64,000 nucleotides of DNA from Mobula hypostoma. Its lineage: Eukaryota. Every line of letters starts with the position of its first letter. The stretch's first letter is position 1. Below are positions 6,853 to 46,300 of the stretch, in pieces. The notes below the pieces were generated by a model that was given only the letters and a program-made list of their open reading frames with translations, did not search any database and was not told where the DNA came from. The stretch lies in assembly GCF_963921235.1 (NCBI RefSeq), contig NC_086097.1:41542001-41606000 (forward strand). Direction: 5' to 3'. The position numbers were made by a program, and so were the translations under genes.

Positions 6853-7110
6853 GATCGGCAAGCAATGAGATCTTTAATCGGCAACTACATTCAGACCACA
6901 TTTGGTATACTGTGAGCAGTTTATAGTCAATATGGGCACAGGAAGATGCAAATATAGAAATTAGTGATTTTTATTCTGTGCCTATAAGCAAAGTGGCGAA
7001 TGGGATTCAAGATAATTTGAAAAAAAATATATTCTGGGACACAGCAAAATCTTTTGAAGAACTTCCAAATTTGGTATTTCTGCCATCTAAAACCAAAATG
7101 ATTGGGGAAA

Positions 7111-7269
7111 GCAACACACATCAAAGTTGCTGGTGAACGCAGCAGGCCAGGCAGGGTCTCGGCCTGAAACGTCGACTGCACCTCTTCCTAGAGATGCTGC
7201 CTGGCCTGCTGCATTCACCAGCAACTTTGATGTGTGTTGCTTGAATTTCCAGCATCTGCAGAATTCCTG
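7111..7269 (+). mobile_element. Penelope-like 3'-end mini-palindrome with 13-bp TSD
   Basis: TSD ATGATTGGGGAAA at 7098-7110 and 7270-7282. The left ~44-nt arm is the reverse complement of ~7197-7240. Sequence matches the ends of the 21834-24085 element. Confidence 0.92.
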
Positions 7270-8819
7270 ATGATTGGGGAAATCAGATTTAAGTAAATGA
7301 GTGAGAAATTTACTCTTTAATTTGGGCCTTTTCGAGCATTAGGTTATGTACATGTTGTTGAAAGGAAACTAGAATCTAATGTGTAAAAATCACCTTGCAT
7401 GCCCAGCAAAAATGTGATAAATCTATTTGCTACTCAATATGCAAATTATCATTCATTAGGGAGATAGTCTGACATTTTGAGATAACACTTATTTTCCTTG
7501 ACGAGTTTGTTCTTAACTCTAAGGTGATTCGAGACACTTGTGAAGTACAATAAAAGTGAGTGCCAATGTGATGTGCAGACCTCAGTGATTGGGGTATTAA
7601 ACAATCATAATAGGAGGAAATGAATCCGGAGCTAGAATATATTCAGAGATATACAGGTAATGCTGGGAAGGGAGAACGTGTGGCTGAACCCTTATGGTGC
7701 TCATTAAATATAACTGTTACAGCAAAAGAACACAAGGTAACTAATGTTATTCAAAAGCATGATTTTTTTTTGTTCTGCTTGACATGCAGACCAGGAAGCA
7801 AACAGCACTGGAATTCATTTCAAAGTAAGTGAGCGAAGCTGTGTACAAGCACTCTCTGAGAGAAATGTGATAGCTAGCTTAGAACAAAATTTGGAAAGGT
7901 TAGATTGCAGCTGAGAAGTTTATCGGGATAAAAATGGGATTGATGTAGGATTGGTGTAAGTTGTTGGTGTCGACTCAGTGGGCCAAAGGACTTGTTTCCA
8001 TTTGTGTGGCTTTATGATATAGAGGAATTGATGTCTAATAGTTACATCGCAGCGTGTTTCATAATTTTCAGCAGACATTCATTAATGTGTCTCACCCGAA
8101 AGGAAAATGTTGCCTGAGCAAAGGAGGAAATAGCAAATGGTTAAGTAATAAAATGCATCAGTGATATGGCAGTACTTTTCAGGGCCAGTTACCAGGAGAA
8201 AAAAGTAGAGCCCTAAGGCTTGGTTAAAAAGGTGGCTTCTCAAGGTGAGAGATGGAAAAGTGGATAACCTAAGGAAGGCACTTTCAGAGCAAAAGGCCCA
8301 GGTAGCAGAGAGACTCCTCTGGATACCTGTGCTCTGCTGGTACCTCTTAACTCAGGTTTTCTACTTCTGTTCATGACGGTTATAAATACTGATAAAAATA
8401 TAGAAGAGAATTTTTCAAAGTTATCAGATAAAGAATTCTGCAGGAAGGAAGTCAGTGAAATGTAAGGAGGTGCTTAGGGATTAGCAACTGAACAGATGGT
8501 CTACAATAATGTGAAATGTTTGGTATACTTTGGTATCAAAATAAGCACTTTGAAGCAAGGGCAGATAAGGTGAGATGAGAAAAGAAAATCTCTGCTTACT
8601 TGTTGGCGAAACACCAAAATCATCTCTGGAAAGCAACAGTTGTGAAGATAAACAAAATATTTGAGTATATAAATATATCAGAAATATTGGAGAGTATACA
8701 GTACATCAGGGGTGCTGTCCACTGTCTAGGTGAGTTGAATTGTTCACTTGTCTGATGTTAAATTAACCAAGCATTGTAAAGACCAGAGTGCCTTTGTTTT
8801 GCCTTCATTAATCTTGAAG

Positions 8820-14250: not shown

Positions 14251-15289
14251 TGCTCAGAAAGTGGTGTTAAAGTCAAGGCGGCATCAGTTGTGATCTTACT
14301 GAATGAAGCAGCAAGCTCAAGAAGCCAAATGGCCAACTCCTGCTCCTGTTTCTTATGCTCTTCACCTGTGCATGATGATCACAATACAGGTAGCAAGCCA
14401 TCTTCTTACAATTGCTTGTTGTTGTGATTTCAGTGCCCAACCAATATTAATAGGCTAAGTTAAAAAAGTAGTGCAGATACAAGAAATCAGAATTGAATTC
14501 TGAAAACTTTTGAAATACTCAGCTGGTCAAGCAGCATCTGTGGAGAAGGAAACAGAGTTTGGATTTGTAAACTTTCATCAAAATTGAAATATTGATTCAT
14601 TCTTTTTTCCTAAATGCAATCTGCCCCCCTGAGTACTTCCAGCAATTTCTTCCTTTGCATCTGCATGTGTGGTAAATGGGATTTCTGGAGATGGGTATTG
14701 CTGGGGTAACTGCAGGGATGGCTTTATTTCCGGAGAAAGGTGGTGAAGTAGCTTGATATTTGTCAAGGAGGCCACCCTTCATCTTCCCACATGCAGATGA
14801 AACAGGGTTAATAGCCTTATGGAGAAATACATAGATAGGGAAGGTTAATACAGAAATGGATCAAATGCAAGCAAATAGAACTGACTTGGAAATTTACCTG
14901 GGTCAGCATAGATGAATTGGGCCAAGAAGCCTTTTTCCACACCGAATGACTTTATGGTCTATCACCACGACACAGAAGAATGGAATCTCTGGCCTTTGTG
15001 GTACCATTTGGTAATCCAGATTCACCAAGACCTTTTAATACAATTAGGCAGCTGAATAGCAAGAGAACTCGGGCCCAGGAAGACCCTCACTTTTCTCTGG
15101 TGCCTGGATCAGTCCAAGAGTCTGGCTGTGAAGGTGTATAATGGTAGTGTTGGCCAGAGGAATACGTGAATCTGGTTAACATTGTCTATGTAATTGTCTG
15201 TCTAAAACATTACAGTTTTGGTTCTCCAATTAGCACTCAACAAAACTACGATGTTTTGGAGAACCAGTTAAATGGAGTCAATGGTTGGC

Positions 15290-15415
15290 CTGACGAAGGG
15301 TCTCGGCCTGAAACGTCGATTGCACCTCTTCCTATAGATGCTGCTTGGCCTGCTGCGTTCACCAGCAACTTTGATGTATGTTGCTTGAATTTCCAGCATC
15401 TGCAGAATTCCTGTT
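15290..15415 (+). mobile_element. Penelope-like 3'-end copy starting at the hammerhead core, 6-bp TSD
   Basis: TSD GTTGGC at 15284-15289 and 15416-15421. Begins CTGACGAAGGGTCTCGGCCTGAAACGTC and ends with the full tail ...CAGCATCTGCAGAATTCCTGTT. Confidence 0.9.
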
Positions 15416-17300
15416 GTTGGCTCTATTTTGTAATTTTTGTACAATATTTTCAAACGCTATTTTCTCCCAGATTATTGACAATGGAAACCTATGCTCTTTC
15501 TCCACTGTGTCCTATCTTTTGTGGTCAGGTATAGTATAAGGCCACTCCCCACCTTACAAAATGAAACAGCTGGGAGACATTATCAAGGATTTCAATGCTA
15601 ATATCCTGTAAAATAAAGGAAGTGATATCATTAGTGTATGCAAGAGATGGTCATGTGACTTCCTGCCATTTGCCAATGAATGCCAAGTAAGATCAGCAGG
15701 CTTATCACTGAGCAGCTGGCAGGCAACAGAGACTCATGGGAGCACATCCAATCAGACAGTCTGGCCCAATATGCTTTTAGATGAATAACATCTTGCTGTT
15801 TTTTAGTCTAGTCACTCAAAGTGAATTCAGCCACAATTTAGAATTAAGAGTGCATCTACTTTTTAAATAAATGAGCCTTTTTCCTCTGAAATGCATTGCA
15901 GCAAAGAAATTTAGAAACATTTCATGCAAAGAAATTTCAAATAGCTTTCTTCATGGAGTGATAGACTTAACAGCACCCCCCCCCCCAACCTTGTACACTG
16001 GGCTCAGCATTTTCTTTCTTCTTTCTTTACATCTTCATCATATTTAATGAATCCGATCACCATCAATTATCCAAACAGCAGACCCTCAGGGGGATACCTA
16101 GTTACAAAACAAATGTTCACGTTTTTAGTTACTGCCCCCATTTTGCTATTTAAATAAATATTAGCAATGGATATAAAATTAGCTGCAGATGTAAAATATT
16201 GCTGGATCCTTCATTGATTTACTCCAGCGTGTGGCTTGCATAATTGTGTTTGTTCATGGGAAAACAGTTCAGAAAACGTAAAATTTAATAAAAGCAACTG
16301 CTGGGGAAATGTTATTATAGCATAAATGCAGCAATGAAGTTTATAATAGAAGCATCCATTCACACAGCTTGTGGCAATGTAAAAGTGGAAATTCTCTCTT
16401 GACCATACAATTGTAATGTTACAGACCAGTATTTAAAATGAAGCCATGCCAGCATGAAACACTAATGTAGGCTGCTGACCAACAGCTTAAGGTTGGTATA
16501 ATTCTATGAAAACTGCTGACTTAATTACAAGCCTGTGCACGTGATCCAATAAGTCTTTAGATAGCTTTTGTATCCAAATCTGTGAAAGATCCAGCCTTTT
16601 TGTCTTTGGGGAAACTAAGGGAAAATATTGCTGATACCTTAAATATGAAATAAGAACTGAACCTTTTACTTGCTTACTTCACATTTTTAGGTAAAAAGGT
16701 CACTGCCAAAGCACACATTGGCTTCATTGAGATATCATTGTTAGGGTCACCATTATGATGTGGCTGGCTGATCACATGAAAATGAAAGACTGTTGGGTAT
16801 CTGAGATCACAGAGGGTCAGGAAAAGGTCTCAGAAGGGCCACTTATGGGTACTTACCTGTGAAGTGCTAAAGAAAGTGTGTAGGACATTCACCAGGATGT
16901 TGCTTGGGATGATGCAGTTCAGTTGTGAGGAGAGAGCAGAGAGCCTGGGTCTGTTCTCCCTGGAGTAGGGGGAACATGACTGACATAAATAAAATTATTG
17001 GGGTATAGATAGGGTTACTATAACAAACTTTTCCCTATGTCCCTACTAGACAGATATATGGAGGAATTTAAGGTGGGGGCTTATATAGAAGGCAGAGTTT
17101 GAGGGTTGGCACAACATTGTGGGCCGAAGGGCCTGTACTGTGCTGTACTATTCTATGTCTATGTCTATGTCAGAGTCAGAAAAAAAAAAGATTTAGGATG
17201 AGGGGAAAGAAATTAATTGGGGGTATGAGGGGGGCTTTTGGTATTGGCTTTGCCAACTGCAAAGTTCTAAACTCAAACGATGACCTGAAGCCCTATAGGA

Positions 17301-21000: not shown

Positions 21001-21933
21001 GATTCTGGTTATGAGTTTGCTTATTGCAGGTGGAGCATTAGTCAATAAACTGATATGGATTGTTTTGTTGCTCCAGATTACAGCATGTCTTGCAATGTCT
21101 TCTGCCACCCCCCCCCCAATGTATGTGCTCTGTTTATGTCCCAAACTTCCTGCCAAATGCATCCAAAGTAAAAATATGGATATTTACCCAAGTAAAAGGT
21201 TCTAGCAACCATTCTACCTCTTAGGAACAGATTTTTTGCCAATCATTTATATAAATACTTTAAATCTCGAATTGCCTTTGAAAGATCAGTGTCAGGTCTG
21301 CACCTCCTCAAGTGTTTGCCTGCCTCCTTGTTCCTTTGCTTTTCGGCTGGTGTCACAGCTCATAGTTATCCACGTATAATGAACACAGGGTACTATACAG
21401 CTTGATCACTATTTTTTTCATCTTGTACTTCACCCAAATTTTGCTAACCATTTTAATACTGAAGAATTGTTTCTATAATTAGCATTAGACATTGGGATGT
21501 TTGGCTGCATCTGGTAAAAAAAAGAGTCCAACATGTCAGTGTTTTATAGCAGCAGATTATCCTCAGAAAGCAATTGTGTAATGTTGCATCTATCATGAAG
21601 TAAGTGTACAGGGATATTACATCTCTCAGAGTCGCTGTGTTTCAATTCAATCTGCTCCTTGTAAACTCACCAGTAATTATTCCACCTTTCTCTATTTTAT
21701 GATTGCTTCTGAATGGAAGTTTCAACTTTGAGCATTTCGTTTTAAACAGAAATCCACAATAATATCAATCCCTCACCACTTCAATAGGGAAGGGTTCAGG
21801 TGGAGGGCATTATGCTGCATTTGGTGTTTATAAGCAAACAACAGGAATTCTGCAGATGCTGGAAATTCAAGCAACACACATCAAAGTTGCTGGTGAACGC
21901 AGCAGGCCAAGCAGCATCTATAGGAAGAGGCGC

Positions 21934-21969
21934 AGTCGACGTTTCAGGCCGAGACCCTTCGTCAGGACT
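21934..21969 (-). ncRNA. Minimal type-I hammerhead ribozyme motif
   Basis: Minus strand reads AGTC-CTGACGA-A-GGGTCTCGGCCT-GAAAC-GTC-GACT. Confidence 0.8.
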
Positions 21970-22261
21970 AACTGAAGGAAGAGTGAGTAAGGGATTTGAA
22001 AGCTGGAGGGGGAGGGGGAGATGCAAAATGATAGGAGAAGACAGGAGGGGGAGGGATAGAGCCGAGAGCTGGACAGGTGATAGGCAAAAGGAGATACGAG
22101 AGGATCATGGGACAGGAGGTCCGGGAAGAAAGACGGGGGGGGGTGACCCAGAGGATGGGCAAGAGGTATATTCAGAGGGACAGAGGGAGAAAAAGGAGAG
22201 TGAGAGAAAGAATGTGTGCATAAAAATGAGTAACAGATGGGGTACGAGGGGGAGGTGGGGC

Positions 22262-22588
22262 CTAGCGGAAGTTAGAGAAGTCAATGTTCATGCCATCAGG
22301 TTGGAGACTACCCAGACGGAATATAAGGTGTTGTTCCTCCAACCTGAGTGTGGCTTCATCTTTACAGTAGAGGAGGCCGTGGATAGACATGTCAGAATGG
22401 GAATGGGATGTGGAATTAAAATGTGTGGCCACTGGGAGATCCTGCTTTCTCTGGCGGACAGAGCGTAGATGTTCAGCAAAGTGGTCTCCCAGTCTGCGTC
22501 GGGTCTCACCAATATATAAAAGGCCACATCGGGAGCACCGGACGCAGTATATCACCACAGTCGACTCACAGGTGAAGTGATGCCTCAC
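22262..22588 (-). pseudogene. GIY-YIG endonuclease domain of a Penelope-like element (5'-truncated; RT absent)
   Basis: FTCES..VIYCVRCSRCGLLYIGETRRRL..H..HF..E..LGSLQPDGMN: GIY-YIG with the CCHH residues of PLEs. The upstream Cys linker (KCYTCP) suggests the Neptune group. Confidence 0.9.
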
Positions 22589-23365
22589 CTGGAAGGACTG
22601 TTTGGGGCCCTGAATGGTGGTAAGGGAGGAAGTGTAAGGGCATGTGTAGCACTTGTTCCGCTTACACGGATAAGTGCCAGGAGGGAGATCAGTGGGGAGG
22701 GATGGGGGGGACGAATGGACAAGGGAGTTGTGTAGGGAGCGATCCCTGCAGAATGCAGAGAGAGGGGGGAGGGAAAGATGTGCTTAGTGGTGGGATCCCG
22801 TTGGAGGTGGCGGAAGTTACGGAGAATAATATGTTGGACCCGGAGGCTGGTGGGGTGGTAGGTGAGGACCAGGGGAACCCTTTTCCTAGTGGGGTGGCGG
22901 GAGGATGGAGTGAGAGCAGATGTACGTGAAATGGGGGAGATGAGGGAGGGAGATGTCCTCCTTTTTTAAAGAAAGGGGCTTCCCTTCCTCCACTGTCAAC
23001 TCTGCTCTCAAATGCATCTCCCCCATTTCACACACATCTGCTCTCACTCCATCCTCCCGCCACCCCACTAGGAATAGGGTTCCCCTGGTTCTCACCTACC
23101 ACCCCACCAGCCTCCAGGTCCAACATATTATTCTCCGTAACTTCCGCCACCTCCAACAGGATCCCACCACTAAGCACATCTTTCCCTCCCCCCCTCTGCT
23201 TTCTGCAGGGATTGCTCCCTATGCAACTTCCTTGTCCATTCGTCCCCCCCATCCCTCCCCACTGATCTCCCTCCTGGTGCTTTTCCTTGTAAGCAGAACA
23301 AGTGCTACACATGCCCTTACACTTCCTCCCTTACCACCATTCAGGGCCCCAGACAGTCCTTCCAG

Positions 23366-23692
23366 GTGAGGCGACACTTCACCTGTGAGTCGGCTGGGGT
23401 GATGTACTGCGTCTGGTGCTCTCGATGTGGCCTTCTATATATTGGCGAGACCCGACGCAGACTGGGAGACCACTTTGCTGAACACCTACGCTCTGTCCGC
23501 CAGAGAAAGCAGGATCTCCCAGTGGCCACACATTTTAATTCCACATCCCATTCCCATTCTGACATGTCTATCCACGGCCTCCTCTACTGTAAAGATGAAG
23601 CCACACTCAGGTTGGAGGAACAACACCTTATATTCCGTCTGGGTAGCCTCCAACCTGATGGCATGAACATTGACTTCTCTAACTTCCGCTAG
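23366..23692 (+). pseudogene. GIY-YIG endonuclease domain of a Penelope-like element (second arm)
   Basis: Near-identical to 22262-22588. Upstream frame 22953-23369 has the PLE thumb/linker (FKERGFP, RVPLVLTYHP, IILRNFRHLQ). Confidence 0.9.
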
Positions 23693-23987
23693 GCCCCACC
23701 TCCCCCTCGTACCCCATCTGTTACTCATTTTTATGCACACATTCTTTCTCTCACTCTCCTTTTTCTCCCTCTGTCCCTCTGAATATACCTCTTGCCCATC
23801 CTCTGGGTCACCCCCCCCCCCTGTCTTTCTTCCCGGACCTCCTGTCCCATGATCCTCTCGTATCCCCTTTTGCCTATCACTTATCCAGCTCTTGGCTCTA
23901 TCCCTCCCCCTCCTGTCTTCTCCTATCATTTTGCATCTCCCCCTCCCCCTCCTGCTTTCAAATCCCTTACTCACTCTTCCTTCAGTT

Positions 23988-24023
23988 AGTCCTGATGAAG
24001 GGTCTCGGCCTGAAACGTCGACT
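23988..24023 (+). ncRNA. Minimal type-I hammerhead ribozyme motif (predicted cleavage after C24019)
   Basis: AGTC-CTGATGA-A-GGGTCTCGGCCT-GAAAC-GTC^GACT: stem I AGUC/GACU, core CUGANGA and GAAA, stem II hairpin, loopless palindromic stem III (ACGU). Activity untested. Confidence 0.8.
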
Positions 24024-25055
24024 GCGCCTCTTCCTATAGATGCTGCTTGGCCTGCTGCGTTCACCAGCAACTTTGATGTGTGTTGTTTGGTGTTTATAAA
24101 GATGGTCTCATTGCCAAAAGCAAGTGCTGGCTTTATTCCCAGTTATAAAAGAAAATACCTGCCTTGCATGAATATTTAATTAACTGTGCTCTATTTTGAA
24201 TAGTGCCCATTTAATTCACGATATCCACGATTACTGAAAGCAAGATTTACATACATAAGGACACATACACATAGCTTTGAACTCCCACTATCTTCAGTTT
24301 AACGCAGAGTAAAATCAAAACAATCCAGCACTTACAGTTATGGAAAAGAAGCTTCAAACTTAACTTGTTCTTGAATTTTCTAATAATATAGCATCAAAAG
24401 ATAAAAAGGCAGCAATTACATTCATTGTGTTGAAATCACTTCGTATTTATTCACCCACCTTCAGTTTACAGATCCCAGAAGGCAAGTTAATTTGCCTAGT
24501 CTGTATCAAAGCTGATGCTTGTCTATAACACTGAGTATCTATTTTGATAAGAAATCTCCTGATACTTCTAAACTCCAAAGAATACAGATCTAAATTATTT
24601 AGTCATCCATAATAGAATAGCAAAATGAATCTCTTCTGGACTTCCTCCAGTGCTTGTATATTTTTCTTAAATAGGGAACCAAAAATATGCAGAATTCTGT
24701 AGGTGTAGCCCAAGGAAAACCCTGTACAATCGCAACAATAATTCTTCATTTATAAACTCCATAAACTAGCAGTGAAAACCAGTTTACTCTTTTCCTTCTT
24801 AATTGTTTGTTGTATCTGCATGCTAACCTTTTGTGCTCCATACAGAGGAACACCTAGATCCACCTGTAATCCACTTATTTTGATACCACTTATCAAAGTA
24901 TAAGACCTTACACTTTCTCGCATTAAGTTCTACTTGTCATTTTATGCCCTCTCCCTCAACTTAGCTATATCATATTACAGAGTGCGAAGATCTCATCATA
25001 GCATGCCATCCCACCCATTTTTGTACCATCATAAAACTTGGATACCTTACACTCT

Positions 25056-25185
25056 CAAACAAGAGAAAATTTGCAGATGCTGGAAATCCAAGCAACACAC
25101 ACAAAATGTTGGAGGAACTCAGCAGGCCAGCAGCATCTATGGAAAAGAATAAACAGTCGATGTTTCCAGTCAAGACCCTTCATCA
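25056..25185 (-). mobile_element. Penelope-like 3'-end copy (sister subfamily) starting at the hammerhead core, 16-bp TSD
   Basis: TSD GGATACCTTACACTCT at 25040-25055 and 25186-25201. Minus strand begins (CC)TGATGAAGGGTCTTGACTGGAAACATCGACT. Confidence 0.88.
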
Positions 25186-27270
25186 GGATACCTTACACTC
25201 TGTTCCACTCCTCAAGATCATTAATATAGGTAGTCACAGCTGATGGCCAAGAACTGATCCTTGGGGCTCTCCATCAGTTATATCTTTACAGTCTGAAATC
25301 AAGCCCATTAATTCTTACTCTCTATGTGATCATCAGTCTTTAATCCATGATGATAGACTTCACTCAATGGAGTTTCCTTATTTCCACTCAAACTAATTCT
25401 ATGTTGTGGGCGTCTGTCCCATAACATGTCTCACCACTACATTGAAGCCTTCCTGGTTTGGCTGCTGTTTACCTATTCACTCAGAACATTAAAAAGTCTA
25501 GAAAACTGGTCAGCATGCAAGTATAGCTCTATAATTAGATGTATTATAGATGAGTTGATTGTACAAATAGAAACAAATGTATGTGATTTATTGAATCAGA
25601 TACATTTGTTTTTATTGGTGTTGTCAATCCAGCTATTTTACCACAAATGCTGTGTGAATTCAGATAGGGAGCTTTAAAGTGAGACATTTTATAATAGCTA
25701 TTTAGCATGGTTCCAATTTCTACTGCAAGCTTATGTTTAGATTTTGTGTCCCTTTCATTCACCCCTTTGCCCTATCATCTCTCTCTTTACCTGAAATAGC
25801 CCCACCAATTGATTTAAAGCCCTGTCTATAATCCTGGTTATGTGATCCACCAAGGATCTAGTGAGGAAATCTCATGAATTGAAAAAGATCTCTCCCAGGC
25901 TTGTCTCTGAACCACATATTTATCTCACATTCCCAGTCTTACTTTCCCTCTAGTAATTTATCTGCGTCTTAGGTAATAATATGGAAATTATAATCTTTGT
26001 GGTTCTGCAATTTTGACTGACCTCCTTATAATCCCTATAAAATCTCCTCCCTAGTTCAACATACATGTGTCATTAGCAACCAATGGTAACTCACTCTGAC
26101 CTTTCCCACTCCAAGTTCCTCTCCAGGTCAGAGGAGATCTTGTTAACCCTGGTAATGGGCATGCAACCTGGCCTTCAAGACTCTGCCTGACGCTTGGATT
26201 ACAGCTCATCAACTCCAAACTGAGATTCTTCAAACGGCTGACACTTAATACAGATATGGTGACTATGAATCAATGGGGTTCACCAGTTCCCATACATTGT
26301 AATTACCACGTATTGTCTACCTAGCCATCTCTGTTCCAGTTAGTGAATTAGTCTGGGATTTAATTATTTTGAATGTGCACTCCTTAGCTGTCCTGGTGTC
26401 TTCTGATTTAAAACTCTTGGCCAATCAATAGAGGGTGTGATCTTTGCCTTCTTACGCTTTTCTACATTTTAGTTTGATAGGGTTTGTTTCGTACAACTGT
26501 GAAAAGATGGAAATTTATTTCAGTCTTGAAATAACTCTTCACAAAATACTCACTTATTCCTTTGCAAAAATTCATCTGTTTTAAACTGCTCTTTCTCTAC
26601 TTAACATTCATGAAGCTAGCTGCTAATATTTATATTAGCTATTGCATCCTGTTTCATCTAGTGCAGTTGCAAAGCACAAAGTTTCCTGTATTTTGAGCTC
26701 TCTGCATTGAGGAGCTTCTTAACTCTTGAAGGACATGTAATTGTGCCTCTGGGGAAAAGGATGCCCATCCAAAGCTTTTGATGAACTAATTTCAAGAGAT
26801 AAATGAGCATAAATTATAGTTATGGGGTAATATACAGTAAGCAGACAAGACAGATATTTGCAGTATCAGCAGGGCTGCACTTTATAATATGTTGGAGATC
26901 AACTGATGACATTTCTGTTCTTCCTTCATTTGGAAGTAAGGACACATGAAGTAGAGCTGGAGGAATTCTCTCAGGTCTCTGAGCTGGCTGTGTTGTGATC
27001 ATTCACCTCATTGCCCATCAAGAATTCATGTTAAATGCCCCTGCTTTTGAATACAATATGTTTATCTTTGACACAGATTACGGTCGTGTGAAATTGTGGA
27101 ATTAGGGGAAGATGAGGCTTCCCTCGCAGTTCACTGAGGAGCAGTTCTGCTCCTCCTGACCAGCAAAGAAACAAATAAAGGGGTACATTTCTTCACGTTT
27201 AAATTTCTACTTTCATTTTAACCTAAAAATGTATGAACTGGCACAAAAACCTTGGGTTAAGATTACAACT

Positions 27271-27523
27271 AACACAAAATGCTGGAGGAACTCATCAGGT
27301 GTGGCAGCATCCATGGAGAGGAATAAAGAGGCAACAGATTGGGCTGAGACACTTCATCGGGACTGATTGTCTTTCTTTGCTGGCCAGTCCCAACGAAAGC
27401 TCTTGGCTCAAAACATCAACTCTTTATTCCTCTCCATCGTGCTGCCTGACCTGTTGTGTTCCTCCTGCAGTTGGTGTGAGTAATTCTGGATTTCCAACAT
27501 CAGCAGTATCTCTTGTTTTTACA
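27271..27523 (+). mobile_element. Older Penelope-like mini-palindrome with 9-bp TSD
   Basis: TSD ATTACAACT at 27262-27270 and 27524-27532. Diverged arms ~27271-27365 and ~27385-27478, then tail ggatttccaacatcagcag. Confidence 0.8.
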
Positions 27524-28171: not shown

Positions 28172-28295
28172 ACAAACAAGAGAAAGTCTGCTGACGCTGG
28201 AAATCCAAGCACTACACATAAAATCCTGGGGCCACTCAGCAGGCCAGGCAGCATCTATGGAAAAGAGTTCAGTTGACGTTTCGGGCCGAAACATC
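28172..28295 (-). mobile_element. Penelope-like 3'-end fragment
   Basis: caaacaagagaaagtctgctgacgctggaaatccaagc...gttgacgtttcgggccgaaac, homologous to 25056-25185. Confidence 0.8.
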
Positions 28296-35086: not shown

Positions 35087-36149
35087 CATAGAAACCATAG
35101 AAACTACAGCACAGAAACAGGCCTTTTGGCCCTTCTTGGCTGTGCCAAACCATTTTCTGCCTAGTCCCACTGACCTGCACACGGACCATATTCCTCCATA
35201 CACCTCCCATCCATGTATCTGTCCAATTTATTCTTAAATGTTAAAAAAGAAACCGCATTTACCACCTCATCTGGCAGCTCATTCCATACTCCCACCACTC
35301 TCTGTGTGAAGAAGCCCCCCCCAATGTTCCCTTTAAACTTTTCCCTCCTCACCCTTAACCCATGTCCTCTGGTTTTTTTCTCCCCTTGCCTCAGTGGAAA
35401 AAGCCTACTTGCATTCACTCTATCTATACCCGTCATAATTTTATATACCTCTATCAAATCTCCCCTCATTCTTCTACGCTCCAGGGAATAAAGTCCTAAC
35501 CTATTCAACCTTTCTCTGTAACTGAGTTTCTCAAGTCCTGGAAACAACCTTGTAAACCTTCTCTGCACTCTTTCAACCTTATTTATATCCTTCCTGTAAT
35601 TTGGTGACCAAAACTGAACACAATACTCCAGATTCGGCCTCACCAATGCCTTATACAACCTCATCATAACATTCCAGTTCTTATACTCAATACCTCGATT
35701 AATAAAGGCCAATGTACCAAAAGCTCTCTTTACGACCCTATCTACCTGTGACGCCACTTTTAGGGAATTTTATATCTGTATTCCCAGATCCCTCTGTTCC
35801 ACTGCACTCCTCAGTGCCTTACCATTAACCCTGTATGTTCTACCTTGGTTTGTCCTTCCAATGTACAATACCTCATACTTGTCTGCATTAAACTCCATCT
35901 GCCATTTTTCAGCCCATTTTTCCAGCTGGTCCAAGTCCTTCTGCAGGCTCTGAAAACCTTCCTCGCTATCTACTACACCTCCAATCTTTGTATCATCAGC
36001 AAATTTGCTGATCCAATTTACCACATTACCATCCAGATCATTGATATAGATGACAAATAACAATGGACCCAGCACTGATCCCTGTGGCACACCACTAGTC
36101 ACAGGCCTCCACTCGGAGAAGCAATTCTCTACTACCACTCTTTGGCTTC
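35087..36149 (-). mobile_element. Young 5'-truncated CR1 nested in an older CR1 3' end (~34790-36295)
   Basis: ORFs 35770-36174 and 35161-35757 nearly intact (GVPQGSVLGP, KFADD, RPNLEYCVQFW). (CCATAGAAA)2 tail; TGCC at both junctions. Confidence 0.92.
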
Positions 36150-36904
36150 TGCCCTGAGGAAAAGACTGTAGCACCTCTGTGCTTCATGGTCTTATATCAA
36201 TCCTTAGCCACCTCTGCATGACAGAAAAAAAAAGCAACAGCTTATTCTGTCTGTCCTTGTAACCCAAGCCCTCCAGACTTGGTAGCATTCTTGCATTTAA
36301 ATCTCTCCATTCATATGTGAGAAACAAAGGTTATAATACCATCTAGTGAGGATTCACAGGAAAGAAAGTGGCTACAAAGTTTTGGTCAGGTATTCAGATC
36401 CTTTGTGATTGACAGGTGTAGCAACACAGTTTTCTCAGGTACTGCAAAAGTATTTGACTGCAGTGTTATTAGGAGTGTTTATGATTATGATCTTGCTTTA
36501 TCATGCTGCAAACATTTCTGTAAGTGTATTTGTCAAGATGTCCACAAAAAGCAGAACAACTCCAGATGAGCTAATTATCTCCCAATGATTCAATCATCAG
36601 CAAAGTGATGCAAGATGTTTTGACATTGCCTTCACACCAGTAATATGTGCACTGATACTCATTTTGGCAGGATTACTCAGCTCAGTACAGCCTTGGTCTA
36701 AACATGTCCTCAAAGAACTGAATCCCAAAGATGTAGTGGCATCAACTAGTTTTTGAACATTTGTGATATGAAGGAGCCCTGATAAATCTCATATTGGTGG
36801 GGATCAAGGGAATGTGTTCCAATGAGTGGAAGATATTTGTGGTTGCTGAAGGCCAAGCTTCGCAGTCCTGTGACATTATCACAGGGATTTCTCAGGGTTC
36901 TACA

Positions 36905-38312
36905 CACACAGAACATAATTTACAACACATTACAGGTCCTTCAGCCCAAAATGTTGTGCTGATCATCTAACCTTCTCTAGAAACTCCTAGAATTCCCCTC
37001 CCGCATAGCCCTCTATTTTTCTAAACTCCATGCATCTAAGAGTCTCTTAAAAGACCTTATTGTATCCACCTCTACCACTGTCGCCAGCAGCCCATTCCGC
37101 ACATCCATCACTCTCTGTGTGAAAAGCTTAACCCTGACATCTCCTCTGTACCTATTTCCAAGCACATTAAACTAGGCCCCCTTGTGTTAACCATTTCAGC
37201 CCTGGGAAAAAGCTTCTGGCTATCCACATGATCAATGTCTCTCATCATCTTATACACCTCTATCTGGTCACCTCTCATCCTCGGTTGCTCCAAGGAGAAA
37301 AGGTCAAGTACACTCAACCTATTCTGATAAGACACGCCCTCCAATCCAGACAACATTCTTGTAAATCTCCTCTGCACTCGATCTATAGTATCCACATCCT
37401 TCCTATAATGAGGTGACCAGAACTGAACACAGTACTTCAAATTGGTTCTAAATAAGGTCTTATATATCTGTAACATTACCTCACGGCTCTTGAACTCAAT
37501 CCCACGGTTGATGAAGGCCAACACATCATACGCTTTCCTAACAACATGGTCAACTTGCGCAGCAGATTTGAGTGTCTATGGACATGGACCCCAAGATCTA
37601 GTTGATCCTCCACACTGCCAAGAGTCTTACCATTAATATTATATTCTCTCTTCAAATTTGCCCTACCGAAATAAACCACTTCAAACTTATTTGTGTTGAG
37701 CTCCAGTTGCCACTTCTTAGCCCAGTTCTGCATCCTATCGAAGTCCCACTGTAACCACTGACAACCCTCCAGAATATCCACAACACCTTCCAACTTTTGT
37801 GTCACAGCAAACTTACTAACCCATCCTTCTACTTCTTCATCCAGGTCATTTATTTAGAATCACAAAGAGGAGGGGACCCAGAACAGATCCCTGCAGAACA
37901 CCACAGGTCACTGTCTTCCATTCAGAATACGAACCATTTACAACCACCCTTTGCCTTCTGTGTCCAAGCCAATTCTGGATTCACAGAGCAAGGTCTCCTT
38001 GGATCCCATGCCTCATTACTTTCTGAGTGAGCCTCGCATGGGGAACCTTATTAAATCCCTTACTGAAATCCACTGCATTAGCTCATCAATGTGTTTTGTT
38101 GCATCCTCAAAGAATTCAATCAGGTTTGTAAGGCGTGACCTGCCCTTGACAAGCCATGCTGACTATCCCTAATCAGATCATGTCTCTCCAAATTTTCATA
38201 AATCCTGCCTCTCAGGATCTTCTCCAACAAATTGCCCACCACTGAAATAAGACTCAGTGGTCTATAATTTCCTCGGTTAGCTCTACTCCCTTTCTTGAAC
38301 AATTGAACAATG
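36905..38312 (-). mobile_element. 5'-truncated CR1
   Basis: Frameshifted RT ORFs 38120-38317, 37476-37805 and 37108-37524. Confidence 0.92.
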
Positions 38313-41300
38313 GCCATTTTCAGCTGTTCCTCACAGTCACAAGTGGAATGTTCTCGGATGATTATACATTGTTCAATTTCATTGATAACTCCTCAGCAAA
38401 AAGAGCAGTCCACACCTAATCGTGTACACATACATACACACGATTATGAGAGTTGGACTTTGATTGGGTAGGTTTCAGGGGCTGATAGATCTTTCCTCAC
38501 TTACAAATTCTAAGGAGGCTGATGATATGAGTTAAAGCCCAGATTTCCAGCTAATTTTACCATTTACTTCACTGGATTGAATATGATTGCCAAGCTTGAG
38601 TCTCGTTTTTTTGGACTTAGATTTCCATATCGTTATCTTGTTGAAATGGGTTGTTAACAAAAGTCAATCTTACTTGACAGAATTACTGGCATAGCCCTCC
38701 CTTAACTAACGATAACATTTTACTTGTCCACCCACTGTCCAATATCACATGTGTTTGCCTGCAGTAATTTGGTTACTGCTTGTATTTTCCTAGACATATT
38801 AATTAGTCTGTGGAAGCTGGTGGCAGGAACAATATTGCTTTTCAGAATAAAATCCATCAAATTATAATAAACATGAGAAACAGCACAGAGCCAAGTGCAC
38901 CTCTCTGAGGGGCTCCTGTGAACATGTTGTCATAAGGAGATAAATACTTTATGTTTGTGTCCTCTAAGGAAGTCATTTAAGTAGCAGAACAGCTGACTAA
39001 GTCTAGTCGCAGAACGAAGAATGATTCATGGTTACCATTAGAACCCCTCGATTGCTTTCCATTCTCTGAGATTTTATAAAGGAACTCAGCATTTTGAGAG
39101 CTGTACTAATTATGTGCTGTCCTTCATATAAACTGTGTGTTAATGTTCAATGTAAAGATTATAGATCCAAGAGTCGTGGTTGTGTTAATGATGAAGTACC
39201 AACCTTTGTTGTCTTTACATCACAAGAAGTGGAAGTCCCATCCTGACCATTGCAAATATGTAGATCAATGCTGAAATCCCAGAGCTGCCACTTGTGATTG
39301 CCTGCTGCAGAGAGCAGTGTCGTGGCCTTCTGAGGCACTGTAGGGAGTAAATGATCTTTGATCTTTGGAGAATCAGAGAATTACCTGCTACTCTCACTTG
39401 CTAAGACTCTGAAAAGTGACAGTTTGTTCCATTTGATGTAATTGAAACTTCAGTGCTGTATTAAGCCATGATTACTGCACAGTGATCTCTCCACCCTATA
39501 CAAAGCTAATTTTGTACAAATTAATTTTCATTCCCTAGGAATGGAGAAGTTCAATGGATCTTTAGGATGCTTAATTATGGCATTTCAACTTCAATCTCAG
39601 TCTCGTATGGAGTTTCCAATCTTTTAACTACTGCCTGTGTAAATTTTGTTTCTTCATTTCTTGGTTTTGCTGTCTCATGAAAGTTCTCTGGTGTGATTGG
39701 CTATTCTGCTTACACGATGAGATTAGTTTAATTAGTGTTGGACCCACTAACCCTGATGTTGCCAGTAATTGGAATCAGGGAAGGGTCCCAGAGATCATGA
39801 GATCCTGAAGGAGCATTCTTCCTTTCAATATTTCTATTAGTTTCTACATAGAAGAATACAGAGTACAAGAAAGTGTATATAAGTATTCAAAAAGAAGATT
39901 TTTAAAAACTACCAGTTACAGTATATCTACTCATAATAACAATCTCATTACCCAATATTCATGTAAGTTAGTCAATAGTTATATTGAAATATACTAATTT
40001 ATTACAAAAATGACTCTAACCCCTACCAAGACCAAAGCTGTTTATTAAGGGGAAAAAAGGTAAAATATCTTCTCATATAATAAAAAATTAATGATAGCCA
40101 ACATCTGAATTTAAACAACGAATTGAGGGTTTTGAAAGTTTTGAAAATAATTCAGAAAGGATCCCCACAATGTTTGAAAGTCTTGACGAGGTTCAGAAAT
40201 AGAACAACAAATCTTCTCTAAATCTAAGCATGACGTAATGTCACATAACTATTGAGCATGAGTAGGAGGAAAAACATCTTTCCATTTAAACAAAAGCGCC
40301 CTCCTAGCTATAAAAGAGCTAAAGGCCAAAATATGTAAATCAGATGTCTTCAGCTTGATTTCTTGTCCTGCAACAATACCGAATAGGGCCATCAGAGGAT
40401 TAGGCTTAAAATTGACTTTGAAAAGTAAAGAAAAAGTTTGAAAAACTTCCTTCCAATATTTTTCAAGACACGGACAGGTCCAAAACATATGAATTAATGA
40501 ATCTTCTCCATTATTACCTCTGTCACAGTAGGGAGATATATCTGAATAAAAACGAGATAGCTTATCTTTAGTCATATGGACTCTATGTACCACCTTAAAT
40601 TGTATGAGGGAATGGCGAGCACATAGCGATGAAGTATTAACCAGTTTAAAAATTTCATTCCAAGTTTTCTCAGATATTGATGTCTGTAAATCTTGTTCCC
40701 AGTGATTCTTAATTTTATCTAAAGGAACATTCCTCGTCTCCAGTAATATACCATAAGTATTAGATATTGAACCATTATGAAAAGGTGTCAAATTAAAAAT
40801 TACGCCTAGTAAGTTCTTATTTGAGCTTATAGGAAATATGCATAATTGAGATCTTAGAAAGTCTCTGATTTGTAGATATCTAAAAAAGTGAGTTTTGGGT
40901 AAGCCATATTTAGCTGACAATTGCAAAAATGAGAAAAAATTTCCTCCAACAAACAGATCCCAAAAACATATAATACCCAACCTGTCCCATTCTTTAAAAA
41001 CTAAATCAGTTATGGAGGGTTTTAAAAAAATTAGAATAAATGGGACTAGAAAGGGAAAATCTCAACAAACTAAAATATTTTCTAAATTGTATCCAGATCC
41101 TCAGAGTATGTTTAACTATTAAATTATCAGTTAGTTTACTTACAAATAAAGGAAGTGAGGATCCGAGAAGAGAAATAATAGAAAATTTATTAACAGAGTT
41201 AGCTTCTAAAGAAACCCATACCGGACAGTCTACAGGTTTAATATATTATAACCAAAACGTAAGATATTGTATATTAACTACCCAGTAATAAAACCTAAAA

Positions 41301-42921
41301 TTAGGTAAGGCTAAACCTCCAGACTTTTTAGGTTTTTGAAGATGAACTTTATTTAAACGAGGACGTTTATTTATCCATATATAGGAGGATAAAATAGATT
41401 CAAGGGAGTCAAAAAAGGATTTAGGAACAAAAGCAGGTTAAGCCTGAAAAAGATATATAAAATTAGGTAGAATATTCATATTAGTAGAATTAATTCATCC
41501 AATCAATGATATTGAAAGAGGTGACCAATTTAATGATATCTTTTTTACATGGTTCAATAAAGTAAGAAAGTTTTCTTTAAACAGGTGTTTGTAATTCTTA
41601 GTGACTGTTACACCCAAATAATTAAATTGATTCCTTACAATTTTAAAAGGGAGATTAGTATTAATTGATACCAAATTATTTAAAGGAAATCATTCACTCT
41701 TATGTAGGTTCAATTTATATCCTGAAAACCGGCTAAAACGGGAGAGTAAAGAAAGTATGCAAGGTAACAAGGTCTCAACATTAGAGATAAAAAGCAATAT
41801 ATCATCAGCATAAAGCGAGATTTTGTGGGTGATACCTCTCCTTAAAATACTACAAATACCATTAGATTCTCGAAAAGCAATGGCAATGGGTTCTAAAGCT
41901 AGATCAAAATGCAAATGACTTAATGGGCAGCCTTGTCTAGTTCCACGGTGAAGTTTAAATGGTTTGGAATTTTAAAAATTAGTGAGAACCTGAGCAGAAG
42001 GAGATAAATAAAGTAATTTAATCTATTGAATAAAATCTGGTCCAAAATTAAATTTTTCTAAGGTTGTAAATAAATAATTCCATTCAACCTAATCGAAGGC
42101 TCGAAGGCCTTCTCAGCAGCTAAGGATATCGCACATTCTGATATCTCCTAAGAAGGAGAGTAAATAACATTTAATACACGGCTTATATTAAAATGGGAAT
42201 GTTGGTTTTTAATAAATCCAATCTGATCATGAGAAATAATAGAAGGTAAAATATTTTCAATCCTATGAGCCAGAACTTTAGGAAGAATTTTAGTATCAAC
42301 ATTGAGTAATGAAATTGGCCTATATGAAGAGCATTCAGCTGGGTCCTTGTTCTTTTTTAGGATAAGCGAAATAAAAGCTTCATAAAAAGATTGAGGCAAA
42401 CTACCCAATTTTAAAGAATCCAAAAAGACTTAAGTATAACCGCGGTATAACTAATGAAGAAAAAGCCTTATAAAATTCTCCAGAAAATCCAACTGGACCC
42501 GGAGCCTTTCCCAAGTGTAATGAACGTATAGCCTTGGTGATTTCCTCTTAAGAAATGAGTTGATCCATCTGTTTGCAATTGTCTGCAGAAAATGTAGGGA
42601 AAATTGATCCAGAAAATTATTCATTACAGTATTATCTTTAGGGGAATCAGAACTATAAACTTTAGAATAGAATTCTCTAAAAGTATCATTTATTTTAGAG
42701 TAATCAATTGTCCTACCACCATTAGTTTTGCAAATTTCTTTAAGTTGTCATTTAACTACAGAAGTTTTCAATTGGTTGGCCAATACTTTGCCTGATTTAT
42801 CTCGGTGAATGTAAAATTATCATCAAGAAGTTGAGTTTCAATTGGGTATGTTAACAGAAGATCATATTTAGTTTTTAACTTCAACACGTCTTTTATATAA
42901 AACAGGATCTGGAGCTATAGC

Positions 42922-43309
42922 AACACACATCAAAGTTGCTGGTGAACGCAGCAGGCCAGGCAGCATCTCTAGGAAGAGGTACAGTCGACGTTTCGGGCCG
43001 AGACCCTTCATCAGGACTAACTGAAGAAAGAGCTAGTTAGGGATTTGAAAGTGGGAGGGGGAGGGGGAGATCCAAAATGATAGGAGAAGACAGGAAGGGG
43101 AGAGATGGAGCCAAGAGCTGGACAGGTGATTGGCAAAAGGGATATGAGAGGATCATGGGACAGGAGGCCCAGAGAGAAGGAAAAGGGGGAGGGGAAAAAA
43201 CCCAGAGGATGGGCAAGGGGTATAGTCAGAGGGACAGAGGGAGAAAAAGGAGAGAGAGAGAAAGAATGTGTGTATATAAATAAATAACGGATGGGGTACG
43301 AGGGGGAGG
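42922..43309 (-). mobile_element. Penelope-like 3'UTR unit inserted into L1 ORF2, 12-bp TSD
   Basis: TSD TGGAGCTATAGC at 42910-42921 and 43310-43321; homologous to ~21872-22258. Confidence 0.92.
42983..43018 (-). ncRNA. Minimal type-I hammerhead ribozyme motif
   Basis: Minus strand AGTC-CTGATGA-A-GGGTCTCGGCCC-GAAAC-GTC-GACT; stem II closes with GGG/CCC. Confidence 0.8.
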
Positions 43310-46300
43310 TGGAGCTATAGCTTATTTTTGATCTAACTGTTTCAATTGATTGGCTAATTCCATTCTTTCTTTATTAGCTTTATTCTTAACACTCGCAGTA
43401 TAAAAATTAATTTGTCCTCTAATATAGGCATTGAAAGCATCCCATACAATAATATTAGAAGTCTCTTCCTTTTCATTCTCTTCAAAAAACAAAATAATAT
43501 GCTTCTCTCGAAATTTTAAATATTCCTTATCAGATAACAAAGTTGTATTAGAACGCCAAAATCTGTTGGTTTGAGGAAGGCCAGGGAGTTTTATAGATAG
43601 AAATATAGGAGCATGATCTGAAACAGCAATCTCTTTATATTCATAGGAGTGAACTGATGAAATCATTTGACTATCAATAAAAAATAATCAATCCTGGAAT
43701 ACGTATGATGAACATGGGGAAAAAAACGAATACTTCCTGTCTAAAGGATGTAAAAAATGCCAAACATCAACAATACCACATTTCAATAAAAAGGATTGAA
43801 TAAACAAAGCTGATTTATTAAGAGACGCTGGTTTAGAAAATTATTGGTCTAAAATTGGGTCTAGCCAACAGTTAAAATCTCCTCTCCTCCCATCACCAAA
43901 GAATAAAGATTCAGAACTGGTAAAAACAAAAAAAAATGCTCAAAGAATCCTGGATCATCTACATTTGGGGCATACACATCGGCAAATACTATTAATTTAT
44001 TATCTAGTTTTCCTGAAACTATAACAAAATGTCCATTAGTATCAAACACTACTTTATGTTGGACAAAGGAAAGTGTATTGAAACTCCTCTAGATCTGGCC
44101 TGAAAAGAAGAGTGAAAGCAAAGTCCATTCCAACAGCTAAAAAAACGTAGATTATCACATTTGCGTATGTGAGTTTCTTGTAGGAAAATAATAGGGACAT
44201 TAAATTTCTTAATATAAGCAAAAATCTTATTACACTTAACAGGATGATTTAACCCTTTCACATTAAAACTAAGTAAATTGATAGTTTGGTCCATTTTTAA
44301 TATTATTTAAAGGAAGGATTAAAATGTCAGTTGAAAACCAAGCCATAAGCCCTAAGAAATGGTAACCAAGCAAGAAGTTGGCTAAAAATTCGAAAACAGC
44401 TTCTGAGAAAAAAAAACATAACCCGCCCACCTCCCAAAGAAAGAAAACTGACCAATAGAAAGTTGGCATCTACAACTACAGACAACCCCTCAAAAATAAA
44501 CTGGTGATTGCTCCAATTAGTTCCAAGGTTATTTATATTCCAACCTAGACTAAACAATACCCGAACGAGAGATTCAATTCTTGTATGTCAAAAATACAGT
44601 ATTAAAAATACGAAAGGAAATTAGTTACAAAGGTTTACCAAAAGTAAAAGATACAATTATTCATACAGAAAGACATTAAACATTTAATCTTATATCTTCA
44701 TGGAAAAACAGACTAAGCAGTTAGCCTTCAAATTTAGAAAATCTTTGTGCTTCAGCATTCGAACGAAACCATTCGAAGGGTCCATCTTTAATGAGATTCT
44801 CAGTCAAACTGCATGGCCTTGGGATGGGTTAAAACCCTTGTTACAAAAATTTCAACAAAGCTTGTTTAAACTTAGCACGTTCCTGCATAACACAAGCGAA
44901 TAATCTTCGAGAATCTTAATATTCCACCAATCATGTCCCTTTGACGGGATTTGCGAATTGAAAGTTTCTCATTTAATCTTGTGTCTTCAGGTAAGGAGAA
45001 ACTAAACAGCTAGCCTTCGGATTTTAAAAACCTTTGTGCTTCAACAATCGAGCGGAATCATTTGAAAGATCCATCTGTAAGTGTAAGGCTTGAAACCCTT
45101 ATTAAAAAGCTCGGACATAACTTCCTTGAACTTAACACGTTCCTGCATAACCTCAGGCGAATAATCTTCGACAATTCTAATCTTGCGACCATTATAATTA
45201 ATCATACCTCTTCGACGAGATTCAAGAATTAAGAGTTCCTTTGTTTTAAATTCCTGAAAACAGATTATTACTGATCTTGGTTTCTGACCCTTAGGAGGTC
45301 TAAATGCAGGAGATCTGTGAACTCGATCAATCATAGGCACAGACATCAAAATCTCCGGAAATAACTCTTGCAAAAAGTTTGCAAAAAACTCCATAGGATG
45401 ATTACCTTCGATTAATTCTTCTAGACCCAGAACCCATAGATTGTTCCTTGTACTATTATTTTCTAGGTTGATAATCTTCTGCCTTAACTTTTTGTTGGAC
45501 TTCGATTGCTTTTCACAAAGCTTCTGCAATTCATCCACTTCTGTTTCCAGAGATGACAAAATTTCTTCAGTATTTTTATACGTTTATCATGTTCATTAAA
45601 AGTTTGTTGAATGGAATCCAATTTACCATCTATTTGTTTAAATTCAGTGCTGAATTGTTGAAACTTCTCAGAGGCTTCTCGTGTATGACTTTGCAGCAAA
45701 TCCATAATAGAATCCAAAGAAACAGGGGAATCATCCTTTTTAGTACCTCTGTCCCTCCTTATATCCATAATGAAAGAATATCACACTTAAAAAAGAAGTT
45801 TCAAGACAGGTTGGAAATAGTAAGATAATTAGGATTGGAGCAACGGCAGATTGCTGTTACTCTATCAGCCACCACCAGGAAGTCTCCGAAGCAGCATTCC
45901 TAAAGGCATTCATACATGTATAGAAACTTCACTGGAAATATGCAAAGTGCATCTGATAGAAAAATATGTGGATGTGCTTACTGTGGACTTCAGCCTGTCT
46001 GACTCCCACCACCTCCTACAATTTCTGTGGCATGAATTCATTCTGTGGCAACATTATCCATGGCTGGGACTATAGTTCAATTGTTCCAGTTAATATCAAA
46101 GAATGTACAGAGTACAACCTGAAATTCTTGCTCTTTGCAGAAATCCACAAAAACAGAGGAGTACCCCAAAGAATGAATGCCAGTAAAAGCAGTAGAGCCC
46201 CAAAACCCCTCTTCTCCTCCTTCCCACACACAAGCAACAGCAAAGTATCAACCCTCCCCCACTTATTTCAGCAAAAAGCATCAGCACCCACCACCCACCA

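What the first reader, a model, noticed from the sequence alone, without database searches (positions are those of the whole stretch)
23988..24023. Minimal hammerhead with loopless palindromic stem III and an extra A: probable obligate-dimer ribozyme
Seen: AGUC-CUGAUGA-A-GGGUCUCGGCCU-GAAAC-GUC^GACU, repeated at 21934-21969 (-), 42983-43018 (-) and, without the 5' strand of stem I, 15290-15321 (+). Differences among these copies fall at tolerant positions: N7 (C/U) and the stem II base (CCU/CCC). Stem III is only ACGU with no loop, so it cannot close intramolecularly but is self-complementary. Established: short-stem-III hammerheads in PLEs can cleave as dimers, and an extra A after CUGANGA is tolerated in a viroid hammerhead. 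Inference: these cleave only when two copies pair.
Basis: partly seen in the sequence, partly recalled or inferred. Interest (0 to 1): 0.75.

Follow-up and report, generated by a model that had tools for sequence, protein, structure and literature searches.

The report
Jumping-gene hammerhead RNA in a ray
This is a tiny hammerhead-type RNA motif at the end of a very abundant Penelope-like jumping gene, a known kind that likely cuts its RNA only weakly, as a pair or with protein help; the one surprise is that about half of the copies break off just upstream of it.

Summary
The motif is real at all four places. It is the minimal type I hammerhead (min-HHR) in the 3' pseudo-LTR of a Neptune-type Penelope-like retrotransposon (PLE) in a cartilaginous-fish genome, with 45,139 exact 34-mer matches. 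The loopless palindromic stem III, the extra nucleotide and dimer-type cleavage were all described for PLEs in 2014 (PMC4209133), so the class is known. Full-length 3,515-bp units carry two same-strand copies (10 of 38 long loci), and relatives covary at 15.2-16.2 (11 of 12). The window copies are solo or opposite-strand arms of dead, 5'-truncated insertions and cannot pair in cis. 'Obligate dimer' is untested; a protein-assisted route is published (PMC11167929). New side result: 51 of 107 copies that pass the hammerhead end 28-60 nt upstream of the cut site (about 14-fold hotspot; replicate 17 of 32; genome counts halve there), while few end at the cut itself. Genomic copies were therefore most likely made from uncut or re-joined RNA.

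The parts
23988..24023 (+). Minimal type I hammerhead motif; predicted cut after C17 at 24019; G10.1.U11.1; loopless stem III ACGU 24015-24018; extra A 23999
   Evidence: architecture compared with PMC4209133 Fig. S3 text
21934..21969 (-). Same motif in the left, inverted arm of the same insertion (N7=C)
21834..24085 (.). One head-to-head PLE insertion made of two 5'-truncated arms; the left arm ends with the long tail, the right arm without it
21820..21833 (+). 14-bp target-site duplication, left copy
   Evidence: read directly from the sequence
24086..24099 (+). 14-bp target-site duplication, right copy
   Evidence: read directly from the sequence
22946..24085 (+). Right arm: end of RT thumb, Cys linker, GIY-YIG endonuclease remnant, about 300-nt 3' UTR, hammerhead, 66-nt downstream segment; 96% identical to a full tandem copy
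21834..22942 (-). Left arm, same parts; 98% identical to a full tandem copy
23174..23692 (+). Linker CX4CxxC plus GIY-YIG endonuclease frame (PF01541, E=0.011, below the curated cut-off)
22262..22783 (-). Linker plus GIY-YIG endonuclease frame of the left arm (PF01541, E=0.0024, below the curated cut-off)
23960..23992 (+). Pyrimidine-rich zone 28-60 nt upstream of the cut site, where about half of the family's copies have their 5' end
42921..43315 (-). Solo 5'-truncated copy of an older subfamily (88%), hammerhead at 42983-43018 with G10.1-C11.1, 12-bp target-site duplication
15289..15418 (+). Mini-copy (hammerhead core plus tail) starting at -29; 5' strand of stem I lost
7109..7275 (.). Short inverted mini-insertion of the same family with the core cut off; 13-bp target-site duplication
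25057..25188 (-). Decayed mini-copy of an older subfamily (79%)
28174..28292 (-). Decayed mini-copy of an older subfamily (79%), core truncated

Best explanation
The motif is the minimal hammerhead in the terminal repeat of a young, very abundant Penelope-like retrotransposon (likely Neptune-type), and it likely cuts weakly, only when the two copies in a full-length transcript pair through their ACGU palindromes, probably with help from the element's own protein. Shown: sequence, position in the pLTR, two same-strand copies 3.5 kb apart in full-length loci, covariation in relatives, neutral decay of genomic copies. Inferred from published relatives: an inactive monomer, slow dimer cleavage after C17, and reverse transcription starting internally 66-73 or 95-121 nt downstream of the cut site. 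Because nearly all copies run through the cut site, the template was likely uncut or re-joined RNA. The window copies are likely dead passengers that cannot pair in cis.
For: Arms carry a GIY-YIG frame. A natural intact 1,043-codon frame has RT with DKG and YIDD, a CX4CxxC linker, GIY-YIG and CCHH (L118). Unit length is 3,515 bp, with same-strand hammerhead pairs in 10 of 38 long loci (9 at about 3.5 kb, 1 internally deleted). In 44 metagenome relatives with enough sequence after the endonuclease, the core-only motif is on the sense strand in 26 and the antisense strand in 2. In 12 distinct sense-strand minimal motifs from 14 of 80 loci, 15.2-16.2, which the search did not constrain, is Watson-Crick in 11 (CG 5, GC 3, UA 3; p=2e-6 if independent); the extra nucleotide is present in 12 of 12; shuffles gave 0 hits in 20 of 20 replicates. 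The L258 motifs match the published Acropora Neptune min-HHR row, and the L258 RT is 52% identical to this element's over its best segment. Older subfamilies keep the motif while adjacent sequence changes. In 4 laid runs the best-supported listed loose ends include both edges of stem I (4030 and 4067 of L133, 709 rows not shown). 3' ends form two clusters (39 of 129 at +66 to +73, 86 at +95 to +118), as internal initiation predicts. Published biochemistry: monomer inactive, dimer and trimer weakly active.
Against: No cleavage was measured for this sequence. ViennaRNA prefers inactive folds: the monomer pairs core G5-G8 with C15.2-C17; in context an upstream pyrimidine tract pairs with the core and stems I and II have probability 0.00; a linked double hammerhead scores -6.4 against -20.3 kcal/mol for two inactive hairpins (tertiary contacts are not modelled). 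The youngest subfamily has G.U at 10.1-11.1 (T in 97 of 114 copies). Subfamily-diagnostic sites are fewer in the motif than in the flanks but not significantly (1 of 36 vs 33 of 329, p=0.13). No Rfam hammerhead hit. In Anolis the ribozyme was not needed for insertion in vitro, and no RNA-seq read ends were found at the cut site. Eight of nine predicted Xenopus retrozyme dimers did not cleave. The Neptune label rests on motifs and one matching published ribozyme row, not on a tree.
Confidence: 0.62

Rival explanations
1. The motif is a protein-assisted ribozyme that does not need a second copy: the element's protein binds near the initiation site and folds a single hammerhead into an active form.
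For: The Anolis PLE hammerhead cleaved only with protein, also with endonuclease-dead protein, on a template spanning one pLTR-ORF junction (PMC11167929). The monomer folds here are kinetic traps that a chaperone could resolve.
Against: With no loop, 15.1-16.1 and 15.2-16.2 cannot pair within one strand (seen in the sequence). The palindrome covaries in 11 of 12 relatives, which a monomer would not need. The Anolis protein is predicted to be a dimer and could bring two RNAs together.
Confidence: 0.15
2. In this lineage the motif no longer cuts usefully. It is kept as a protein-binding, promoter or structural element, or it simply rides along.
For: Only 4 of 170 copies end at +1/+2. G.U at 10.1-11.1 in the youngest subfamily. 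The ribozyme was dispensable in vitro. Naiad PLEs thrive without canonical hammerheads (PMC8557442 passages).
Against: The exact catalytic core and the dimer palindrome are kept across distant relatives and across subfamilies. G.U at this pair occurs in at least 7 published min-HHR rows.
Confidence: 0.2
3. The motif is a chance match spread by retrotransposition.
For: The copy number reflects amplification, not independent selection; copies decay neutrally; no Rfam hit.
Against: Strand bias 26 vs 2 of 44 and covariation 11 of 12 in relatives; same position and architecture as published PLE hammerheads.
Confidence: 0.03

Closest known systems
[quoted passage not shown]
   Same: Type I core, one nucleotide between 9 and 10.1, palindromic 15.2-16.2 with no loop 3, short stem I, located in pLTRs; mostly solo or opposite-strand pairs from truncated elements.
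   Different: No cartilaginous fish among the rows I could read. About 45,000-86,000 near-identical copies here against up to about 9,000 heterogeneous ones reported. The youngest subfamily has G.U at 10.1-11.1.
Small dimer-cleaving PLE hammerheads (Lunse, Weinberg, Breaker; PMC5785218; not held, known only from its title and a review's passage)
   Same: Very short palindromic stem III; dimer cleavage.
   Different: Could not check whether sharks or rays, or this sequence, were included.
Poseidon PLE of Anolis (Frangieh et al. 2024, PMC11167929)
   Same: Hammerhead upstream of two internal RT start sites that define the optional tail; uncut RNA used as template.
   Different: There the ORF starts inside stem II; here the first ATG lies about 140 nt downstream of the cut site. 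Different clade (no Cys linker in Penelope/Poseidon). No 5'-end hotspot is reported in the parts I read.
Non-LTR retrozymes (bioRxiv 10.64898/2026.07.22.740005)
   Same: Type I hammerhead derived from PLE pLTRs; present in one chondrichthyan sampled.
   Different: Retrozymes are short non-coding tandem arrays; this motif belongs to a coding PLE and to dispersed truncated copies.

Membership tests
PLE minimal type I hammerhead (PMC4209133) | Core CUGANGA ... GAAA ... NUH | tested here: met
PLE minimal type I hammerhead (PMC4209133) | [quoted passage not shown] | tested here: met
   A at 23999; 107 of 107 copies. In U11.1 copies this A could instead pair with U11.1, but that register scores worse (-4.6 vs -6.0 kcal/mol)
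PLE minimal type I hammerhead (PMC4209133) | Palindromic 15.2-16.2, loop 3 absent or palindromic | tested here: met
   C-G, no loop; covaries in 11 of 12 relatives
PLE minimal type I hammerhead (PMC4209133) | Stem II opened by a G10.1 pair (G-C in the consensus, G.U in several published rows) | tested here: met
   G.U in this copy and 97 of 114; G-C in 17 of 114 and in older subfamilies; published G.U rows
PLE minimal type I hammerhead (PMC4209133) | Located in pLTRs, two same-strand copies flanking the ORF in full elements | tested here: met
   10 of 38 long loci; not the case for the window copies themselves
PLE minimal type I hammerhead (PMC4209133) | Self-cleavage as a dimer, not as a monomer | not testable with these tools
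   needs in vitro assay; folding energies do not favour the active dimer
Rfam hammerhead families | Covariance-model score | tested here: not met
   no hammerhead family among 16 hits at E<=1 or 3 hits at E<=10; not filed under Rfam families
Penelope-like element, EN+ | Single ORF with RT and C-terminal GIY-YIG | tested here: met
   1,043-codon frame in L114, L118, L141; RVT_1 E=5e-5, GIY-YIG E=2e-4, both below curated cut-offs
Penelope-like element, EN+ | Partial tandems, head-to-head inversions, optional 30-40-bp tail | tested here: met
   definition from PMC8557442 passages
Neptune clade | CX2-5CxxC linker plus CCHH in the endonuclease (shared with Nematis) | tested here: met
   read from the translation; definition
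Neptune clade | RT phylogeny with named Neptune references | not tested
   no named references were in hand; indirect link through L258
Non-LTR retrozyme | Short non-coding tandem array with a hammerhead in each unit | tested here: not met
   none of the 7 tandem-repeat rows in the window covers a motif; the tandem unit seen is 3,515 bp and coding

The most novel reading that the evidence does not exclude
The hammerhead is the switch between abortive and productive transposition. Uncut RNA that starts 28-60 nt upstream of the cut site is primed at its first internal site and runs off its 5' end, leaving the 100-165-bp hammerhead-plus-tail inserts that make up about half of all copies. Dimer cleavage and re-joining of the two hammerheads gives a unit-length circle, on which the same priming site lies just past the junction, so the RT can run a full turn or more.
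Probability: 0.15. Interest if true: 0.7.

Novelty: new member of a known kind. Interest (0 to 1): 0.3.

Why it matters
The ribozyme class, its extra nucleotide and its dimer architecture are published, so the finding as posed is ordinary. What this family adds is scale and youth: tens of thousands of near-identical copies, natural intact ORFs and a sharp, measurable 5'-end hotspot beside the hammerhead. The role of hammerheads in PLE transposition is open: one paper proposes circles, another finds cleavage dispensable in vitro. This element gives genomic footprints and ready substrates with which to test that.

Tried and rejected
Rfam scans found no hammerhead family; the miRNA-family hits at 22850-23107 come from the long inverted repeat. 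RNA evidence: no RNA holder listed; all 22 runs are contigs and none is on record as RNA, so the 4 of 22 runs laid cannot show starts, ends or expression. Run-off at the cut site as the main source of 5' ends: 4 of 170 at +1/+2 against about 1 expected (post hoc p=0.02), and none of 38 long copies within 19 nt of +1; rejected as a major route. A length-defined hotspot: medians -33 (n=20) and -34 (n=57) for the two 3'-end classes, p=0.22; rejected. A programmed RT-EN frameshift: suggested by the 150 hits, but that query selected for it; 39 of 62 copies have the intact spacing; rejected as slippage in a C-run. Start-site-like A bias of hotspot ends: 8 of 22, p=0.08; inconclusive. A splice acceptor just before stem I (as in Drosophila Penelope): a pyrimidine tract plus CAG is present, but the ends are spread over 33 nt and I saw no shared upstream exon in the listing; not supported. 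Marker linkage across the hammerhead: mostly linked, with some mixed haplotypes; not interpretable. L119 first looked like a second-pass end at -29 but is a separate old copy and was dropped. Lunse et al. could not be read. The viroid extra-A claim gave 0 passages in PMC2632901 and rests on one sentence in PMC4209133. No earlier scan findings were returned.

Full report
Observation. The 36-nt motif is at 23988-24023 (+), 21934-21969 (-), 42983-43018 (-) and, without the 5' strand of stem I, 15290-15321 (+). The core pattern matches 4 times against 0.01 expected. Stem III is ACGU (24015-24018) with no loop, and an A sits between positions 9 and 10.1. No Rfam hammerhead family is hit, either in the whole window at E<=1 (16 hits) or in a 151-nt stretch at E<=10 (3 hits).

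What carries it. The 21934 and 23988 copies are the ends of two 96%-complementary arms of one head-to-head insertion, 21834-24085, with a 14-bp target-site duplication. Each arm holds a GIY-YIG frame and about 300 nt of 3' UTR before the motif. The 3.48-Gb genome has 45,139 exact matches to a 34-mer of the motif, reversed control 0. I fetched 38 of the 40 places scored for a 5' probe (the two left out were the probe's own locus and an 81-nt partial hit). They show a 3,515-bp unit, an open 1,043-codon frame in three loci, and same-strand hammerhead pairs in 10 of 38. The protein has DKG and YIDD, a CX4CxxC linker, GIY-YIG and CCHH, the marks of Neptune/Nematis PLEs in PMC8557442 (passages). The closest named proteins are from Mobula (88-92%) and Chiloscyllium (67-71%), so the host is inferred to be a ray. 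I built no tree; 'Neptune-type' is an inference.

Is the motif under selection? Not in individual copies. Among 129 distinct copies picked only by an exact downstream 31-mer (drawn from the first 7 Mb of contig C1), N7 is T in 6 of 104, C15.2 in 6 of 115, G16.2 is A in 14 of 117 and C17 is T in 6 of 116. N7 does not differ from other CpG cytosines (p=1.0). Older subfamilies keep the motif. Diagnostic sites are fewer inside it than outside, though not significantly (1 of 36 vs 33 of 329, p=0.13). In 80 metagenome loci related through the RT, 44 had enough sequence after the endonuclease: the core alone is on the sense strand in 26 and the antisense strand in 2. Twelve distinct sense-strand minimal motifs came from 14 of the 80 loci; 15.2-16.2, left free in the search, is Watson-Crick in 11 with three different pairs; 20 shuffles gave none. 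These 12 are not fully independent. About half of the core hits lack the extra nucleotide and do not have the loopless form, so by inspection the two features go together in this set.

Prior work. PMC4209133 (main text parts 1-2 of 4; supplement parts 1-2 of 3) defines this motif: no loop 3, palindromic 15.2-16.2, a nucleotide between 9 and 10.1, in pLTRs including Neptune, mostly solo or in opposite-strand pairs. The monomer was inactive and dimers were weak. Its Acropora Neptune row matches the L258 motifs. Lunse et al. is not held; I saw only its title and a review's summary (PMC6765202 passages). PMC11167929 (parts 1-2 of 4; supplements not seen) shows internal RT initiation at two sites that define the tail, cleavage only with protein, and insertion unaffected by ribozyme mutants. 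The retrozyme preprint (parts 1-3 of 5) found cleavage in 1 of 9 dimers. I also read passages of PMC2377424 (internal promoter in the pLTR) and PMC3846280 (solo and inverted pLTRs, an Inr-like motif).

Mechanism. A loopless stem III can form only between two copies (seen in the sequence); in the dimer both stems I would also be shared between copies (modelled). Full-length tandem loci supply two copies in one transcript; the window copies do not. Folding predicts inactive states: a monomer hairpin pairing G5-G8 with C15.2-C17, sequestration by the upstream pyrimidine tract, and -6.4 vs -20.3 kcal/mol for the double hammerhead against two hairpins. This fits weak, assisted cleavage but cannot show it. 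3' ends fall at +66 to +73 (39 of 129) or +95 to +118 (86 of 129), never at the cut site (the sampling required sequence to +66, but the 38 long copies picked by their 5' part show the same). This matches internal initiation, and the cDNA then crosses the cut site, so the template was likely uncut or re-joined.

Unexpected result. 5' ends pile up just upstream of the hammerhead: 51 of 107 copies at risk end between -28 and -60 (0.0205 per nt against 0.001-0.004 elsewhere), rate ratio 13.6. The window was chosen after seeing the data, and arms of inverted pairs are not independent. The effect holds for single insertions (22 of 47; 13 of these 22 have an adjacent duplication of 8 bp or more), for 41 other copies with inexact tails from the same loci, random stretches and the window (17 of 32), and genome-wide: 102,736 matches at +8 to +35, 86,251 at -32 to -5, 42,460 at -65 to -38 and 46,397 at -139 to -112 (the patterns differ in degeneracy). 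It is fixed by position, not by length. It is weak on the second pass through a pLTR (1 of 12 long copies, p=0.006 against 68 of 139; small and differently selected sample). Candidate causes are run-off at a transcription start, release of the cDNA at a hairpin, or microhomology fold-back. The first fits the first-pass bias best but is untested. Truncated and solo pLTR copies are known; I found no report of this hotspot in the listings of searches or in the texts read, and the library lacks most subscription papers.

Verdict. A real, known kind of ribozyme motif in a new, very abundant host element. Interest 0.3, most of it from the 5'-end hotspot.

Noticed in passing
L111 (G000:C12:173175000-173184999): Tandem of about 2.3 units with three hammerheads; units 99.4% identical, both full units sharing the same C-run frameshift between RT and endonuclease.
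   Followed up: partly
L114, L118, L141: Natural copies with an uninterrupted 1,043-codon frame, so the family was active recently; L118 has C in place of the R before YIDD.
   Followed up: partly
L278, L284, L286, L287, L289, L292, L304, L308, L312-L316: Related PLEs in metagenome contigs carry a second hammerhead architecture with no extra nucleotide and without the loopless form.
   Followed up: no
window 23973-24003 (+): The upstream pyrimidine tract is predicted to pair with the catalytic core (seen for the L111 copy); it also holds Inr-like and splice-acceptor-like motifs (consensus recalled, not from a call).
   Followed up: partly
window 24017-24022: A second palindrome, GUCGAC, spans the cut site and appears in the predicted inactive dimer.
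   Followed up: no
L151-L240: 61 of 129 sampled copies have inverted element sequence at their 5' junction, many turning inside or beside the hammerhead.
   Followed up: partly
window 40249-45583 (-): Decayed L1-like element (L1 RBD-like and zf-RVT hits); the 42921-43315 PLE copy is inserted inside it.
   Followed up: no
window 46939-49863 (+): LINE-like element with a 692-codon RT frame (RVT_1 E=1.5e-30).
   Followed up: no
window 1288-2653, 35161-36183, 36926-38285: Several related LINE fragments (RVT_1 E=3.6e-35 for 2003-2644); they look CR1-like (label recalled).
   Followed up: no
window 5686-6238: 57-bp tandem repeat, about 10 degenerate copies.
   Followed up: no
window 27266-27437: Old, decayed head-to-head pair of hammerhead-plus-tail copies.
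   Followed up: no
L062 (oriented position 4572) and L119 (3329): Hammerhead variants with different stem II sequences, suggesting further PLE families in this genome.
   Followed up: no
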